DNA from: Squalus acanthias | Taxonomy: Eukaryota | Assembly (NCBI GenBank): GCA_030390025.1 | Contig: CM059443.1 | Coordinates: 33,604,001-33,668,000, forward strand | Direction: 5' to 3' | DNA: 64,000 bases | In this document: in pieces, positions 32,191 to 51,726 of the stretch | Layout of the letters: each line of letters starts with the position of its first letter | Numbering within the stretch: the first letter of the stretch is position 1 | Program-made: the position numbers and the translations under genes | Notes under the pieces: generated by a model | Database searches by the model: none | Told to the model about the DNA's origin: nothing | What the model saw: the letters and a program-made list of their open reading frames with translations, nothing else

Positions 32191-32295
32191 CCCCTTCGAT
32201 CTCTCTCCCTCCCCCACCCAGTTTCAATCTCCAATTTAGTGACCGAATCTCTAGTCTGCTGCAGGAGTATATTCAGTTTAACCATAGAATGATAC

Positions 32296-32578
32296 GATGA
32301 TGTGGAGTTGGACTGGGGTGGACAAATGTGAGAAGTTGCACAACACCAGGTTATAGTCCAACAGGTTTATTTGAAATCACAAGCTTTCGGAGCGCTGCTC
32401 CTTCGTCAGGTGAAGTGAAGAGATACATATAGGCACAGCATATATAGTCAGAGAACACAGCCAGATGATTAAAGTTAATCTTTCCAACTGCCCTTTATCA
32501 CACCTCGGCAGAGAGATAATCACAGCAATCAAAGGTGTGGATGGTGTCCAAACAGGTCAGTCAGGAAAACATTACATC
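32296..32578 (-). mobile_element. Truncated PLE family 1 pLTR with hammerhead (32377-32413), inserted in a CR1 tail
   Basis: Matches the reverse complement of ~6930-7216; TSD agaatgatac (32286-32295) / agaacgatac (32579-32588). Confidence 0.85.
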
Positions 32579-32804
32579 AGAACGATACAGCACAGAAGGA
32601 GGCCATTCGGCCCATCGTGCCTGTGCAGGCTCTTTGGTAGAGCTCTCCAACTAGTCCCAGTCCCCCTGCTCTTTCCCCAGCAAATTTCCCCTTTTCAAAT
32701 ATACACCCAAATCCCATCTGAAGTTCTCATGTTAATAAACATTAGGCATCAACATAAACAGTTGTTTGAACGTTTTTGATGCAGCTCGTGTATCTTGTCG
32801 AGAA

Positions 32805-32985
32805 ACAAAAGACTGCGGATGCTGGAAATGTGAAATAAAAACAGATTATGCTGGAAACACTCAGCAGGTCAGGCAGCATCAAGAATTCGAACACAAGATC
32901 ATTGACCTGAAACGTTAACTCTGTTTCTCTCTCCACAGCTGCTGCCTGACCTGCTGAATGTTTCCGGCATTTTCAGTTTTAATTT
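32805..32985. mobile_element. PLE family 2 fold-back pLTR remnant
   Basis: Minus-strand 3' end (ATGCTGGAAACACTCAGCAGGTCAGGCAGC) followed by plus-strand GACCTGAAACGTTAACTCTG...GCTGCCTGACCTGCTGAATG. Confidence 0.75.
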
Positions 32986-33367
32986 AGTGTCTGTTGTTGG
33001 TTGATGTAGGTGTTTCGGTTTTGCCTTTGCCCTTAGTTTGTTTGCTGTTGGTGGTTAAAGGGCTTGCTGTGCTGCCACGTGCTGCTTGTTTACGACTGCT
33101 TGCAGATGACGGACGTAGGTTTTGTGGGCCTCTCCCCTCTTTGACACTTCATCGAAATTGAAAAGCAAATTAGTTGTAAATTTAGTCATTGCCGAAGGAG
33201 TGGATGTCGCAGAGGACCCAACAAATCATCCAGGCGCAGACAGCTTCCAGTCGCATGGTTTGTCTTTCTAAAGAGTGCAGTGTGTGCGTGTGTGAGCTAA
33301 AAGGGGCATGAGTAGTTATATTACGGGACGAGTAATCCAGAGGCCTGGACCAATAATCCGGAGACAT

Positions 33368-33763
33368 GGGGCTGGATTTTGCCAGCCCTGGGGAGGCGGG
33401 TTAGGAGGTGGGACTGCCAGGAAAATGGCAGAATTTGGGGGCGGGTGCCCGACCCGCCTCCGTGCCATCTTGCCAGGAGGCGGGAAGCCGTGCCGCGCCA
33501 GGTCCAGTCTCCTTGGAGGCGGGAAGGGGATTACAGCCACTTAACTGCCTGTTAACAAAAAATTTTGACAGATGAAACGTCAAACGTTGACGTTCTCTGT
33601 AACCGGCTTTCCCTTAATTGGCCTGCTAAGCCCGCCGGGCGGGCTTAACAAGGTCAATCAAGGGAAAATAGCGTGGGTTGGCCAGAAGTTGATGGAGGCG
33701 GGACTGAAACCCGACAAGTGGGAGTCCCGCCTCCAAAAGCTCCCCATTGGCAAAATCCAGCCC
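33368..33763. mobile_element. MITE (Harbinger-like termini) nested in a tRNA-SINE spanning ~33300-34123
   Basis: Perfect TIRs GGGCTGGATTTTGCCA / TGGCAAAATCCAGCCC; the host SINE resumes with ATGAGTTCAAATCCCAC. Confidence 0.85.
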
Positions 33764-34547
33764 ATGAGTTCAAATCCCACCTTGCCAGCTGGGGAACTTC
33801 CAATTCAATGAATTAAATAAATCTATAATTAAAAAGCTAGTATCAGTAATGGTGACCATGACACTACCGGCTTGTTGTAAAAACCCATCTGCTTCACTAA
33901 TGTCCTTTTAAGGAAGGAAATCTGCCGTCCTTACCCGGTCTGGCCTATATGTGACTCCAGACCCACAGCAATGTGGTTGACTCTTCAATGCCCTCTGAAA
34001 TGGCCTAGCGAGACACTCAGTTGTATAATGTAACTCACCACCACCATCTCGAGGGCAATTAGGGATGGGCAATAAATGCTGGCCTTGCCAGCGACGCCCA
34101 CATCCTGTGAACGAATAAAAAAACCACTGAGAAACAAAATGATCACAACAATTATGTATGTGTGTGTATGTATATCTGTGTGTTTGTTGAAATATATATA
34201 TATATTTGTTTAATAGAGGTGTTCAAGATTTTGTACGGGTAGATGGGGAAAAACTGTTTCCACTGACAGGAGGGTCGCTAACCAGAGGACACAGATTTAA
34301 GATAATTAGCAAAAAATGCCTGGGGGGAGATTGGATTCTGATGATTTGGAATGCACTGCCTGAAAGGGTGCTGGAAGCAGATTCAGTAGTGACCTTCAAA
34401 AGGGAATGGGATAAATACTTAAAAAGGAAAACTTTGCAGGGCTTTTGGGGAAAGAGCAGGAGAGTGGGACGAATTGCTAGCTCTTTAAGGGAGCCGACAC
34501 AAGCGCGATGGGCCAAATGGCCTCCTTCTGTGCAGTCTGATTCTATT

Positions 34548-49090: not shown

Positions 49091-49519
49091 AAAAGAAAAA
49101 CTGCAAATGTTCGAAATCAAAATAAAAGCAGGAATTGTGAATGCACATCTGGTCTGTTTGCATCTAAAGAGTAAAGATAGGTTAACATTTTGACACAACT
49201 GTTAAAAGCTGGAGCTAAGGGACTGGCTTTGCACAGAAGTTCTTTATTGAAACAATTTATTAGCTGCTAATGTGGCCCAGCGAGCTCATTATGTATAAAT
49301 TTTACATTGTCTAATATAATAGATGAAATGAGTACAGTATATGCAGAGTTTAAACTTGCCTCGGGTATCTTTGACAAATTTTGCTACTCATCCACAGATA
49401 CAGTGGAACTTCCATTATCTGCCATTTTGGAGGGACACTCTAATGTGAATTGGTGAATAGAGTCCCAAATTTTTGTCTTGCCTGTTTGATAAAGCAACAC
49501 CGTAGATGTGGGAGATTAA

Positions 49520-50083
49520 GGGGGAAAATTGGGTCGCGCCCCCTTTGGGGCGCTAACTTCGCCGGGGCACTACTTTTAGCGCCCCGAAAAAGTTTGCACC
49601 CACACGCCCGAAATTCACTGGTAGCGCCCCAAAGAGGGAGGCGGAGCGCTACTGGAAGCGCCCCCCTCCCTCTTGGGGCGCTGCGAGTGAATATCACGGC
49701 GCTACGTGCAGCAGCTCATAGAGGAGTGCCGGGTTCACGGAGCGCAGCCGGCACCCCGCGGGGGGCGGGGGGCTTCACAGGAGGCCGGGGACAGCAACGG
49801 GGGGCAGGTGCTGGCAGCCGCCCGGCACCTTCCCTTTAATTTGCGCCGCCCCGGCTGCACGTACGCCCCACCCCCCGACCCTGTCGGACATGGTGTCTGG
49901 CGGTAAGTCAGGGGGCGCTACCGAAGATCGCGGCCGGGGCGCTGCGCACGGCGATGAGGCGCCGCGGGGCACTAACTGTTACCGCCGCCACTAACCTCCC
50001 GCTGAATTTCGCGGGAGGCGTCAGCGGTGCCGCGCCCTAAGAGGCCGCTAACAGGAAGTGCAAATCAACTGAATTTTCCCCCC
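49520..50083. mobile_element. GC-rich PIF/Harbinger-type MITE
   Basis: TIRs GGGGGAAAATT / AATTTTCCCCC, TAA on both flanks, repeated GGCGCTA/TAGCGCC motifs. Confidence 0.75.
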
Positions 50084-50872
50084 TAAGATTAGTAGAATAC
50101 AAATATTGTAAATTGGATCCAAACATCCTTAAGCTGTGAGGTCGATTTGTGCCACGGAGGAGCAAATTGGGAATCGTGGGCTAAGTAACAAGATAACGGC
50201 CCACACCAGGCTTTGCCCGGTAAAAGTTTTGGTGGATAACCAGAAGGCGAGTAATTGGAGTACAAACAATGGAAATTGCACTGTGAGTTCACATATACTG
50301 TTACTATTTAATTTGGCTCTAGTTTTAAAAACCAACTGCGCAAGTTTAAATTGTTGCACGGATTTAATATCAAGCAGGAAGTGCAGGCAGCCAGAATGGT
50401 TTGTTTTTTGGCCAGGAGCGGAGAATTCTGGAGCTGTCTGCATTATTTTTAATACTATCTGAGTCATAGCTGCAGTTTGTTTTAATGCTAAATTTGGAGT
50501 GGTCAGATCTGAGCAATCGGTCCTGAGTTTTCCATTGAAAGGACGATAAACTTTCATCTTTGAACTACAGTAATAATAATTTTTGTTTAAATCCTCTCCC
50601 CCCCCCCCCCCCCCCCAGCCCCACCCTAGTTACTTTCTCACACACTACCTTATTTCCCATTTTATTCCAGTTCAAAGTATAGACCAAGGATTTAGATCCT
50701 TGCCCCCAAGACCCATTATTGGTCAGAATTGGAAAAACCGAGCCTAAGATTAATCTCGCCCATTTTGAACAAGTAAATACAGCTGTTGCAGCTTGTGCTG
50801 GCTTTGTAAGCGGCGGAGAACCAGAATTGTCTTTGAAAGTAATCGAATGTTTTCTTTTCTAATCTCTTGCAG

Positions 50873-50920
50873 AGTGGCTGGAATTCATGTGAACATGTTG
50901 AAGAGAAAGAAGCCTCATAG
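50873..50920 (+). other. Candidate 48-nt internal exon of the host gene
   Basis: Acceptor tttcttttctaatctcttgcag| with a CTAAT branch-like motif and donor AG|gtaaag, in non-repetitive sequence; one open frame VAGIHVNMLKRKKPH. Confidence 0.35.
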
Positions 50921-51467
50921 GTAAAGGGGGACCACGGGAAGAGAACGCAGCCTGGTGTGCCTTTTTTCTGTGGTGTTGGTTGGGAAGCCGGGGCAGCGCT
51001 GCGCAACTCGAGACCTGCGGCCCACGAGTGACATTGTCCCCCTGTTTTATTCTTGGAAAAGTACCCGCCGGTCACAAGGGAGGCCTGTTACATTTAGCCC
51101 CCCCCCCCATGGAATTTTGGGTCCAGGGCACATTTGGAGGTGTGGAATTTGTGTCCTCCGCACATGCCACGCCATTGGGTGTGGGAATAACGTGGGTGCT
51201 ATGGGCAGCATATTGCGAAAGGAAAATGCTATTGAAAGGGTTTTAGGATGTTGAACTTTACAGGCAGTACATTGACCTTAAGCTACTAAGGAGGTGGATA
51301 GCATAGATGCATTTAATGGAAAGCTAGATTAATACATGAGGGAGAAAGGTTATAGACGGTGATGCTGATAAGGTGAGATGAAGTAGGGTGGGAGGAGGCT
51401 CGTGTGGAGCATAAACACCGGCATAGACCAGTTGGGCCGAATAGCCTGTTTCTGTGCTGTATATTCT

Positions 51468-51682
51468 ATGTGAGAAGTCGCACAACACCAGGTTATAGTC
51501 CAACAGTTTTATTTGAAATCACAAGCTTTCGGAGCGCTGCTCCTTCGTCAGGTGACTTCACCTGACGAAGGAGCAGCGCTCCGAAAGCTTGTGATTTCAA
51601 ATAAAACTGTTGGACTATAACCTGGTGTTGTGCGACTTCTCACATTTGTCCACCCCAGTCCAACACCGGCATCTCCACATCA
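51468..51682 (+). mobile_element. 215-bp PLE family 1 hairpin mini-element with two back-to-back hammerheads (51519-51555 -, 51558-51594 +)
   Basis: 88-bp arms 51468-51555 / 51558-51645 with a 2-nt loop; 37-nt tail; TSD tgtatattctatg (51458-51470 / 51683-51695) in a CR1 tail. Confidence 0.92.
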
Positions 51683-51726
51683 TGTATATTCTATGGAATG
51701 ATGTATAGAATTAACATTATTGGAGA

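What the first reader, a model, noticed from the sequence alone, without database searches (positions are those of the whole stretch)
32281..51695. Penelope mini-elements repeatedly inserted in the 3' tail of CR1 LINEs
Seen: all three small family 1 insertions lie just after the terminal TTCTGTGC(T/A)GT motif of different CR1 copies and duplicate the tail sequence. The TSDs are agaa(t/c)gatac (32286/32579, i.e. gtatcattct in CR1 sense), tgattctatt (34538/34933) and tgtatattctatg (51458/51683). All contain ATTCT, and both relative orientations occur. The large copy sits instead in tcatgttaaaaa. Inference: this GIY-YIG endonuclease may prefer the ATTCTATG-type CR1 tail repeat, so one retroelement would use another's tail as an abundant safe landing site. 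I do not know of this being described for sharks. The sample is only 3 of 4 insertions.
Basis: partly seen in the sequence, partly recalled or inferred. Interest (0 to 1): 0.8.

Follow-up and report, generated by a model that had tools for sequence, protein, structure and literature searches.

The report
Penelope retroelement landing in CR1 tails
In this shark-like DNA, three of four copies of one jumping gene sit in the short repeated tail of another, far commoner jumping gene, most likely because its DNA-cutting enzyme prefers the tail's sequence, but four copies are too few to show this holds genome-wide.

Summary
Observation confirmed. The window holds 4 copies of a Neptune-type Penelope-like element (PLE): RT, Cys linker, GIY-YIG, hammerhead, inverted arm ending 34-40 nt short of the 3' end. 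Three short copies (5'-truncated or inverted copies, not a separate mini-family) sit in tails of three different, older CR1 copies with 10-13 bp TSDs, in both orientations. The insertions are independent. Tails are 0.9% of the window: P about 3e-6, 1.5e-4 AT-matched (post hoc, one window of an unknown number scanned). All three empty sites contain ATTCTAT, and 11 of 17 such sites lie at CR1 ends, so a 7-bp endonuclease preference suffices; recognition of CR1 itself is not shown. The large copy, from another subfamily, is not in a tail, so the endonuclease in view may not be the one responsible. A second hammerhead family touches a tail at 1 of 9 loci (chance level). No outside flanks were obtainable. 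Simple-repeat bias in PLEs and TE-targeting retroelements are known; PLE-into-CR1-tail was not found in 10 literature searches. New variant of a known kind, awaiting a genome-wide flank count.

The parts
32286..32295 (-). Ins1 TSD copy at the element's 3' end (GTATCATTCT in CR1 sense)
32296..32578 (-). Ins1: simple 5'-truncated PLE copy, ~283 bp, CR1-sense, no inverted arm; 9-nt deletion near the 3' end, 2 unassigned nt (32296-32297); hammerhead stem I starts at 32413
32579..32588 (-). Ins1 TSD copy = tail of host CR1 (GTATCGTTCT)
32589..32726 (-). Host CR1 #1, 3' end; 15.6% from local majority, 26% from host #2
34226..34537 (+). Host CR1 #2: ORF2 C-terminal remnant and 3' UTR (left limit approximate); 11% from local majority
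   Evidence: CR1 label from the published octamer and a recalled ORF2 C-terminal motif
34538..34547 (+). Ins2 TSD copy = CR1 tail, at the element's 3' end (boundary uncertain by 2 nt)
34548..34932 (-). Ins2: antisense to CR1; 3' piece 34548-~34675 (-) plus inverted arm ~34671-34932 (+); arms differ at 4 of 94 nt; two hammerheads (34670 -, 34844 +)
34933..34942 (+). Ins2 distal TSD copy; first 2 nt are microhomology with the element
51291..51457 (+). Host CR1 #3, 3' end of a different CR1 subgroup; 8.2% from local majority
51458..51470 (+). Ins3 TSD copy = CR1 terminal TGTA plus tail; last 3 nt are microhomology with the inverted arm
51471..51682 (+). Ins3: palindromic PLE copy, CR1-sense; arms identical over 88 of 88 nt, then a 37-nt 3' tail; two hammerheads (51555 -, 51558 +)
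51683..51695 (+). Ins3 TSD copy at the element's 3' end
3920..3931 (+). Large copy left TSD (TCATGTTAAAAA), not at a CR1 end
3929..4686 (-). Large copy inverted arm, 758 of 758 nt identical to 6424-7181
4687..6759 (+). Large copy ORF, 5'-truncated, one frameshift near 5707-5726; RT core (RVT_1 E=2.7e-08)
6337..6363 (+). C-x4-C-x2-C linker motif (Neptune/Nematis type)
   Evidence: definition in PMC8557442
6421..6756 (+). GIY-YIG endonuclease domain with two Cys between the GIY and YIG strands
   Evidence: best fold match I-TevI catalytic domain, prob 1.00, TM 0.78 over target, E=0.06
7087..7128 (+). Minimal type I hammerhead motif of the large copy (longer stem II loop than the small copies)
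7214..7225 (+). Large copy right TSD; first 3 nt coincide with the element's end

Best explanation
A shark Neptune-type PLE subfamily inserts by ordinary PLE target-primed reverse transcription, but its GIY-YIG endonuclease (probably helped by the Cys linker finger) prefers a site close to ATTCTAT(G). It makes two nicks about 8-13 nt apart around the motif, one near ATTCT^AT^G on the top strand and one 0-5 nt before the motif on the bottom strand. Either nick can prime, which gives both orientations. Reverse transcription starts at the fixed 3' end; the inverted arm begins 34-40 nt further in and is joined by 2-3 nt of microhomology. Because the CR1 tail is the octamer ATTCTRTG and CR1 is very abundant, most good sites are old CR1 tails, so the PLE accumulates there without needing to recognise CR1 as such. 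SHOWN: anatomy, TSDs, independence, order of insertion, enrichment in this window, clade motif. INFERRED: nick positions (from TSD edges, blurred by microhomology), endonuclease as the cause, role of the linker, genome-wide validity.
For: 3 of 4 copies in 0.88% of the window, AT-matched P=1.5e-4. All three empty sites contain ATTCTAT; 11 of 17 ATTCTAT sites lie within 25 nt of a CR1 end (one of the 11 is a flank site beside ins3 rather than a tail). From the site list: PLE in 3 of 9 tails that have ATTCTAT and 0 of 17 that lack it (Fisher p=0.03, my arithmetic). Hosts 8-16% diverged versus PLE copies 1.6-4.3%; arms 0 of 88 and 4 of 94 mismatches; hosts 1 and 2 are 26% apart. The TSDs of ins1 and ins3 duplicate the CR1's own terminal bases, so CR1 came first. 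Precedent: the anole PLE protein cuts both strands at an ATT motif and starts RT at two sites 30-40 nt apart without homology to the target (PMC11167929); the CX2-5CxxC linker is hypothesised to mediate simple-repeat bias in Neptune (PMC8557442) and is present here and in 79 of 85 scorable homologues.
Against: n=4, post hoc, and the window was picked from an unknown number of windows. The large, youngest copy is not in a tail; its site matches only a degenerate WTTYTAW, of which 15 of 149 lie in tails. The ins1 motif is intact in only one TSD copy. The endonuclease of the small copies' subfamily is not in the window. Occupancy of 3 in 9 motif-bearing tails is so high that it may be a local excess. 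Two crocodilian Penelope-1_Crp insertions (another family) have TSDs TTTCAG and TGCATCAGTG, without the motif (PMC4316615 supplement). One unnamed protein joins this PLE's end to CR1 ORF2 sequence rather than tail sequence, and another has a non-CR1 3' flank (both may be spliced or indel-bearing).
Confidence: 0.5

Rival explanations
1. Weak preference plus winner's curse: the endonuclease only likes ATT/ATTCT-type AT-rich DNA, CR1 tails are modestly enriched genome-wide (about 5-15% of copies), and this window is a lucky draw noticed in a large scan.
For: ATT preference is what was measured for the anole PLE. With an ATTCT preference 11 of 128 non-satellite sites (8.6%) are in tails, giving P(>=3 of 4) of about 2.4e-3 (my arithmetic), which a scan of hundreds of windows would reach. 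The large copy is off target.
Against: All three sites share 7 bases, and two share the same register at the CR1 end. 75 ATTCTA sites in the satellite at 19366-21900 are unused (weak, since the array may be young or homogenised). ATT alone gives 1e-5.
Confidence: 0.23
2. True CR1-end targeting: the protein reads a longer site including the conserved TTCTGTGCTGT upstream of the tail, as homing-type GIY-YIG enzymes with extra binding domains do; a hyperparasite specialised on another retroelement.
For: 3 of 9 motif-bearing tails are occupied versus 0 of 6 ATTCTAT sites away from CR1 ends (one search list). All three hosts are of the TTCTGTGC type (3 of 17) and none of the TCCTGCTCC type (0 of 9). 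GIY-YIG homing enzymes have long recognition sites (PMC8557442 Introduction).
Against: 3 of 9 versus 0 of 6 is not significant (Fisher p=0.18, my arithmetic). TSD edges vary by several nt and both orientations occur, unlike strict site-specific elements. The close relative (large copy) inserted elsewhere.
Confidence: 0.13
3. RNA-guided priming: a source copy lying in a CR1 tail is transcribed through into the duplicated tail, so its RNA base-pairs with nicked CR1 tails and progeny keep landing there; or CR1+PLE composites ending in a duplicated tail are copied by CR1 machinery.
For: The large copy shows 3 nt identity between target and element end; ins1 and ins3 share orientation and register. 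Composites do end in a second tail copy.
Against: Ins2 is antisense. The anole PLE primes without homology. The three hosts and three inserts all differ, hosts are much older than inserts, and no repeated composite is seen.
Confidence: 0.07
4. CR1's own endonuclease nicks tail-like sequence and the PLE uses those nicks, or CR1 tails are a general insertion hot spot.
For: Young waterfowl CR1 insert next to TTCT (PMC2612034). One fragment of a second hammerhead family abuts a CR1 tail at about 60603-60638.
Against: 8 of 8 profile-detected loci of the second family lie >=149 nt from any CR1 end; 1 of 9 overall is chance level (about 15%, my arithmetic), though that family is older. I saw no other TSD-flanked insert in the 23 other tails (the repeat test is weak, it missed ins1 and ins3's own TSDs). 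TSDs here are 10-13 bp versus 1-5 bp for the crocodilian CR1 markers shown.
Confidence: 0.04
5. Pure chance in AT-rich DNA, or CR1 inserting beside pre-existing PLE TSDs.
For: n=4; CR1 uses tail-like targets.
Against: AT-matched P=1.5e-4; TSDs include CR1 terminal bases; hosts are older than inserts.
Confidence: 0.03

Closest known systems
Neptune-clade Penelope-like elements (Arkhipova 2006, as described in PMC8557442)
   Same: RT followed by a CX2-5CxxC linker and C-terminal GIY-YIG with internal Cys pair; hammerhead near the 3' end; simple-repeat insertion bias has been attributed to the linker.
   Different: Targets named in the passages read are (TA)n, (CA)n and (C)n microsatellites (for Naiad, Hydra, Chlamys); here it is one or two units of an 8-bp repeat that belongs to another retroelement, with clear 10-13 bp TSDs.
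PAc / Poseidon_Ac of Anolis (PMC11167929) and Adineta Penelope families (PMC3846280)
   Same: Optional 30-40 nt 3' tail, inverted 5' repeat shorter by the tail, 8-10 bp TSDs, both strands cut at ATT; single cases of Penelope nested in other retroelements in Adineta.
   Different: Penelope/Poseidon clade lacks the Cys linker; preference is only AT-rich/ATT; no repeated landing at LINE 3' ends in the parts read.
Target-specific non-LTR retrotransposons that insert in other TEs (e.g. Xenopus Tx1L; class summarised in PMC8869645)
   Same: One mobile element using another's repeated sequence as target through endonuclease preference.
   Different: They use AP- or restriction-like endonucleases, and (recalled) insert at one exact position and orientation; here GIY-YIG, variable edges, both orientations, and at least one off-target relative.
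rDNA-targeting spike-moss PLE-X families (PMC8557442)
   Same: PLEs with a defined multicopy target.
   Different: They lack GIY-YIG and hit a precise 28S position.
Non-LTR retrozymes (bioRxiv 10.64898/2026.07.22.740005)
   Same: Short hammerhead-bearing sequences related to PLE pseudo-LTRs.
   Different: Retrozymes are head-to-tail tandem monomers; these copies are single or inverted, TSD-flanked and each truncated differently.

Membership tests
EN+ Penelope-like element | Single ORF with RT and C-terminal GIY-YIG endonuclease | tested here: met
   RVT_1 E=2.7e-08. The window's C-terminal part alone has no GIY-YIG Pfam hit, but 7 of 17 aligned proteins do; model's best fold match is I-TevI. 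ORF has one frameshift.
EN+ Penelope-like element | Two Cys between GIY and YIG plus downstream His residues (CCHH) | tested here: met
   YLIRCRKEC...WYIG and GEHF...GH in the window protein; C245, H285, H291 invariant in 17 sequences.
EN+ Penelope-like element | Pseudo-LTR anatomy: inverted 5' repeat lacking a 30-40 nt tail; TSD | tested here: met
   3 of 4 copies have an inverted arm ending 34-40 nt short of the 3' end; 4 of 4 have 10-13 bp TSDs.
EN+ Penelope-like element | Minimal type I hammerhead motif in the pseudo-LTR | tested here: met
   Own descriptor finds it in all 7 arms, 0 hits in 20 of 20 shuffles. Rfam at gathering score found nothing. Cleavage not testable.
Neptune clade | CX2-5CxxC motif in the RT-EN linker | tested here: met
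   C-x4-C-x2-C at 6337-6363; 79 of 85 scorable homologues have x2-x5 spacing. Shared with Nematis, so not unique.
Neptune clade | RT phylogeny grouping with reference Neptune rather than Nematis or Hydra | not testable with these tools
CR1 LINE (hosts) | Conserved 3' UTR ending in ATTCTRTG octamer repeats, downstream of ORF2 | tested here: met
   26 related 3' ends, tails resembling ATTCTATG or TTTCTTATG; octamer as published for birds; RT-bearing LINE fragments nearby. ORF2 C-terminal motif recognised from recall.
CR1 LINE (hosts) | RT phylogeny in the CR1 clade | not tested
   The three hosts are too short to include RT.
Target-specific (site-specific) retrotransposon | Most copies at one exact position and orientation in a multicopy target | tested here: not met
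   Edges vary by several nt, both orientations, 1 of 4 off target. It works like a target-biased element, not a strict site-specific one.
Target-specific (site-specific) retrotransposon | Endonuclease cleaves the target specifically in vitro | not testable with these tools
   Needs a nicking assay.
Non-LTR retrozyme | Head-to-tail tandem monomers of fixed length with hammerheads | tested here: not met
   No tandem copies; three different structures.

The most novel reading that the evidence does not exclude
A shark Neptune subfamily has evolved a GIY-YIG/linker specificity for the CR1 3' terminus itself and has filled a sizeable share of CR1 tails genome-wide: a PLE hyperparasite of the dominant LINE, whose target is continuously manufactured by its host element, with a sister subfamily (the large copy) of looser specificity allowing the determinant to be mapped.
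Probability: 0.2. Interest if true: 0.75.

Novelty: new variant of a known kind. Interest (0 to 1): 0.5.

Why it matters
What sets PLE target choice is open: the linker-finger hypothesis is described as a hypothesis in PMC8557442, and the one purified full-length PLE shows only an ATT preference (PMC11167929). A young, abundant vertebrate family with a defined 7-8 bp target, readable TSDs and a sister subfamily that differs would make that question directly testable. CR1-group elements fill 22-34% of shark and ray genomes (PMC13343379), so a preference for their tail would shape where many PLE copies lie. It would also bias nested-insertion dating and produce CR1-PLE chimeric repeat models. 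If the genome-wide count shows only mild enrichment, this is an ordinary AT-rich-target PLE.

Tried and rejected
Outside flanks: a 22-nt element motif in genome contigs gave 0 matches; the protein alignment gave 1 locus of 1,304 bp lying wholly inside a related ORF, with no flank. Reading flanks from predicted proteins that cross the junction: 0 candidates, 2 candidates with none significant, and 14 hits of which 2 were relevant and 12 long repetitive proteins; the two were not decodable. N- and C-terminal extras of 149 homologous proteins were compared with the window (output partly cut): in the part seen none matched a CR1 tail, but they mostly start at internal Met or splice sites, so this is uninformative. 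Element motifs in paper full texts: 0. Supplements: PMC13343379 (cells cut at 400 characters, so CR1 3' ends unseen), PMC11167929 (0 hits), PMC4316615 (file 1 not searched). The metagenome and viral contig collections, bioRxiv supplements and the protein Atlas stayed unchecked. MFE folding of the 3' end was not better than shuffles (z=-0.36). PDB sequence search gave only distant RTs and T4 EndoII. A search for other TSD-flanked inserts in tails was insensitive and dominated by neighbouring CR1 tails. Idea that the terminal CATCA-TG is the ORF start giving priming homology: not testable, no tandem copy here. Rejected: one composite copied three times (hosts and inserts all differ); separate non-autonomous mini-family (three different 5' structures); ATTCT or ATT as sufficient motif without a selection effect; assembly artefact (TSDs and diverged arms).

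
Full report
OBSERVATION. The window is repeat-rich DNA (52% self-repeat including the masked PLE). Its closest proteins are from sharks: Heptranchias perlo 91%, Scyliorhinus 83%, Mustelus 79-82%, turtles about 40%. I do not claim the species. BLAST with the element's 3' end, body and protein finds exactly 4 family-1 loci. The three small ones begin 0-3 nt after the terminal TTCTGTGC(T/A) of a CR1-like end. 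Ins1 and ins3 are in CR1 sense and ins2 is antisense.

IS IT MORE THAN CHANCE? An iterated profile gave 27 hits; I dropped one weak 24-nt hit (24465, E=0.017), leaving 26 ends: 17 of a TTCTGTGC type and 9 of a TCCTGCTCC type. After removing the four insertions in a script, a 20-nt zone behind the 26 ends is 0.88% of the sequence, and P(>=3 of 4)=2.7e-6; zones of 15-50 nt give 1e-6 to 4e-5; matching AT content gives 1.5e-4. These are post hoc, and the number of windows scanned upstream is unknown. Conditioning on a motif: ATT 45 of 2322 in tails; ATTCT 11 of 128 outside the satellite; ATTCTAT 11 of 17 (10 of 17 with the narrower zone); ATTCTATG 8 of 9. All three empty sites contain ATTCTAT, though for ins1 only when the distal TSD copy is kept. 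From the site list, a PLE sits in 3 of 9 tails that have ATTCTAT, 0 of 17 tails without it (Fisher p=0.03) and 0 of 6 ATTCTAT sites away from CR1 ends (p=0.18 against tails); both p values are my arithmetic. So a 7-bp preference is enough, and CR1-specific recognition is neither needed nor excluded. A 5-bp preference gives about 2.4e-3 (my arithmetic), unlikely for one window but reachable in a big scan.

INDEPENDENCE AND ORDER. Hosts 1 and 2 are 26% apart and host 3 aligns with another subgroup. Hosts differ 15.6, 11.0 and 8.2% from the majority of their window relatives (an upper bound, since subfamilies are mixed), the small PLE copies 4.3, 1.7 and 1.6%. Inverted arms differ at 0 of 88 (ins3), 4 of 94 (ins2) and 0 of 758 nt (large). 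The inserts have three different structures, and the TSDs of ins1 and ins3 duplicate the CR1's own last bases. Hence three separate PLE insertions into pre-existing CR1 copies.

WHAT THE ELEMENT IS. The large copy has a 5'-truncated ORF with one frameshift near 5707-5726, RT (RVT_1 E=2.7e-08), a C-x4-C-x2-C linker at 6337-6363 and a GIY-YIG domain: 7 of 17 aligned proteins hit Pfam GIY-YIG, the window protein itself does not; the model (mean pLDDT 68, higher in the nuclease part) best matches the I-TevI catalytic domain (prob 1.00, E=0.06). The linker marks Neptune or Nematis (PMC8557442); I could not run a tree with named references. A minimal type I hammerhead occurs in all 7 arms and in 0 of 20 shuffles; Rfam missed it. 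Three of four copies have an inverted arm that stops 34-40 nt short of the 3' end and joins the target by 2-3 nt microhomology, the PLE 'tail' signature (PMC11167929, PMC3846280). The small copies are therefore ordinary truncated insertions. The large copy has a 5-nt longer hammerhead stem-loop than all three small copies and an inverted ~20-nt 3' UTR block relative to ins1 and ins2: another subfamily. The tally is 3 of 3 for one subfamily and 0 of 1 for the other, and the endonuclease we can read belongs to the off-target one.

MECHANISM. Most likely (0.5): the endonuclease prefers about ATTCTAT(G) and nicks both strands 8-13 nt apart around it; either 3'-OH primes reverse transcription, giving both orientations. 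Nick positions are inferred from TSD edges. The anole PLE protein cuts both strands at ATT and primes without homology, and the linker has been hypothesised to direct Neptune to simple repeats. Since the CR1 tail is ATTCTRTG (PMC2612034) and CR1-group elements make up 22-34% of elasmobranch genomes (PMC13343379), CR1 supplies most sites. Rivals: weak preference plus a lucky window (0.23); recognition of the CR1 end itself (0.13); RNA read-through priming or hitch-hiking composites (0.07); CR1-made nicks or a general hot spot (0.04); chance (0.03).

CONTROLS AND RESULTS AGAINST. The large copy's site fits only a degenerate WTTYTAW, 15 of 149 in tails. A 32-bp satellite holds 75 unused ATTCTA sites. 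A second, older hammerhead family has 8 profile-detected loci, all >=149 nt from a CR1 end, plus one fragment abutting a tail at about 60603-60638: 1 of 9, chance level, order unknown. Two crocodilian Penelope insertions of another family have TSDs without the motif. Of two unnamed proteins crossing this element's ends, one continues into CR1 ORF2 sequence and the other has a non-CR1 flank ending in Ile-Leu, compatible with ATT-CTG but not decodable. No genomic flanks from other loci could be obtained, so genome-wide validity is unchecked. 'Safe landing' is untested: a Pfam scan of 150 of 334 non-repeat ORFs showed no clear host gene.

LITERATURE. Ten searches found no report of PLEs targeting CR1 tails; the library lacks most subscription journals and Repbase notes, where such a remark could exist. 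Seen: PMC11167929 parts 1-2 of 4 plus a supplement search; PMC8557442 Introduction and 12 passages; passages of PMC3846280, PMC2612034, PMC8869645, PMC12602865 (nothing relevant), PMC13343379 (plus supplement search with cut cells), PMC4316615 (plus supplement file 2) and bioRxiv 10.64898/2026.07.22.740005 (supplements unseen). Arkhipova 2006 and the Tx1L work were seen only as citations; Tx1L's exact-site insertion is recalled. Simple-repeat bias in PLEs and retroelements that target other TEs are both known; their combination through a GIY-YIG enzyme and a LINE tail was not found.

VERDICT. Real, non-random and independent in this window; best read as a target-sequence bias of a Neptune-type PLE that coincides with the CR1 octamer. 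New variant of a known kind, interest 0.5; the bold version (specialisation on CR1 ends) has probability about 0.2 and would merit 0.75. One genome-wide flank count decides it.

Noticed in passing
window 11113, 18314-18421, 26412-26524, 32810-32993, 38131-38280, 57826-57953, 58596-58628, 59847-59947, ~60603-60638: A second, older hammerhead-bearing repeat family, with inverted-arm structure at two loci; probably another PLE family. One fragment abuts a CR1 tail.
   Followed up: partly
window 19366-21900: 32-bp satellite, 79 copies, 96% matches; 75 units contain ATTCTA on the minus strand, none with a PLE.
   Followed up: partly
window ~6970-6992 versus ~34725-34747 and ~32493-32515: A ~20-nt block of the PLE 3' UTR is inverted between the large copy and ins1/ins2, within a hairpin-like context; useful subfamily marker.
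   Followed up: partly
window 51683-51712: The flank right of ins3 has a second, opposite-strand ATTCTAT and, between the two, 6 nt matching the reverse complement of the PLE's 3' end; chance or an aborted event.
   Followed up: no
window 44357-44425 and 46528-46595: 69-bp segment present twice in inverted orientation, 97% identical; the second copy starts exactly at a CR1 3' end.
   Followed up: no
window 3094-3843: Two N runs (741 N) end about 75 bp left of the large PLE copy; its left flank is next to an assembly gap.
   Followed up: no
window 51726-52324 and 54004-54600; 1-214 and 59149-59359: Local duplications at 91% (600 bp) and 96% (214 bp) identity.
   Followed up: no
L001 1-1304: A contig in a Solemya gill-symbiont genome record consists wholly of a related PLE ORF (61% identity), probably host DNA in the assembly.
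   Followed up: no
proteins P0017 cluster: 54 predicted proteins cluster at 90% identity; all those listed are from Heptranchias perlo, suggesting recent expansion; PLE pieces also appear fused into several annotated shark gene models.
   Followed up: no
window ~50874-50921: Short stretch flanked by a polypyrimidine-AG and a GT that looks like an exon; no Pfam match.
   Followed up: partly
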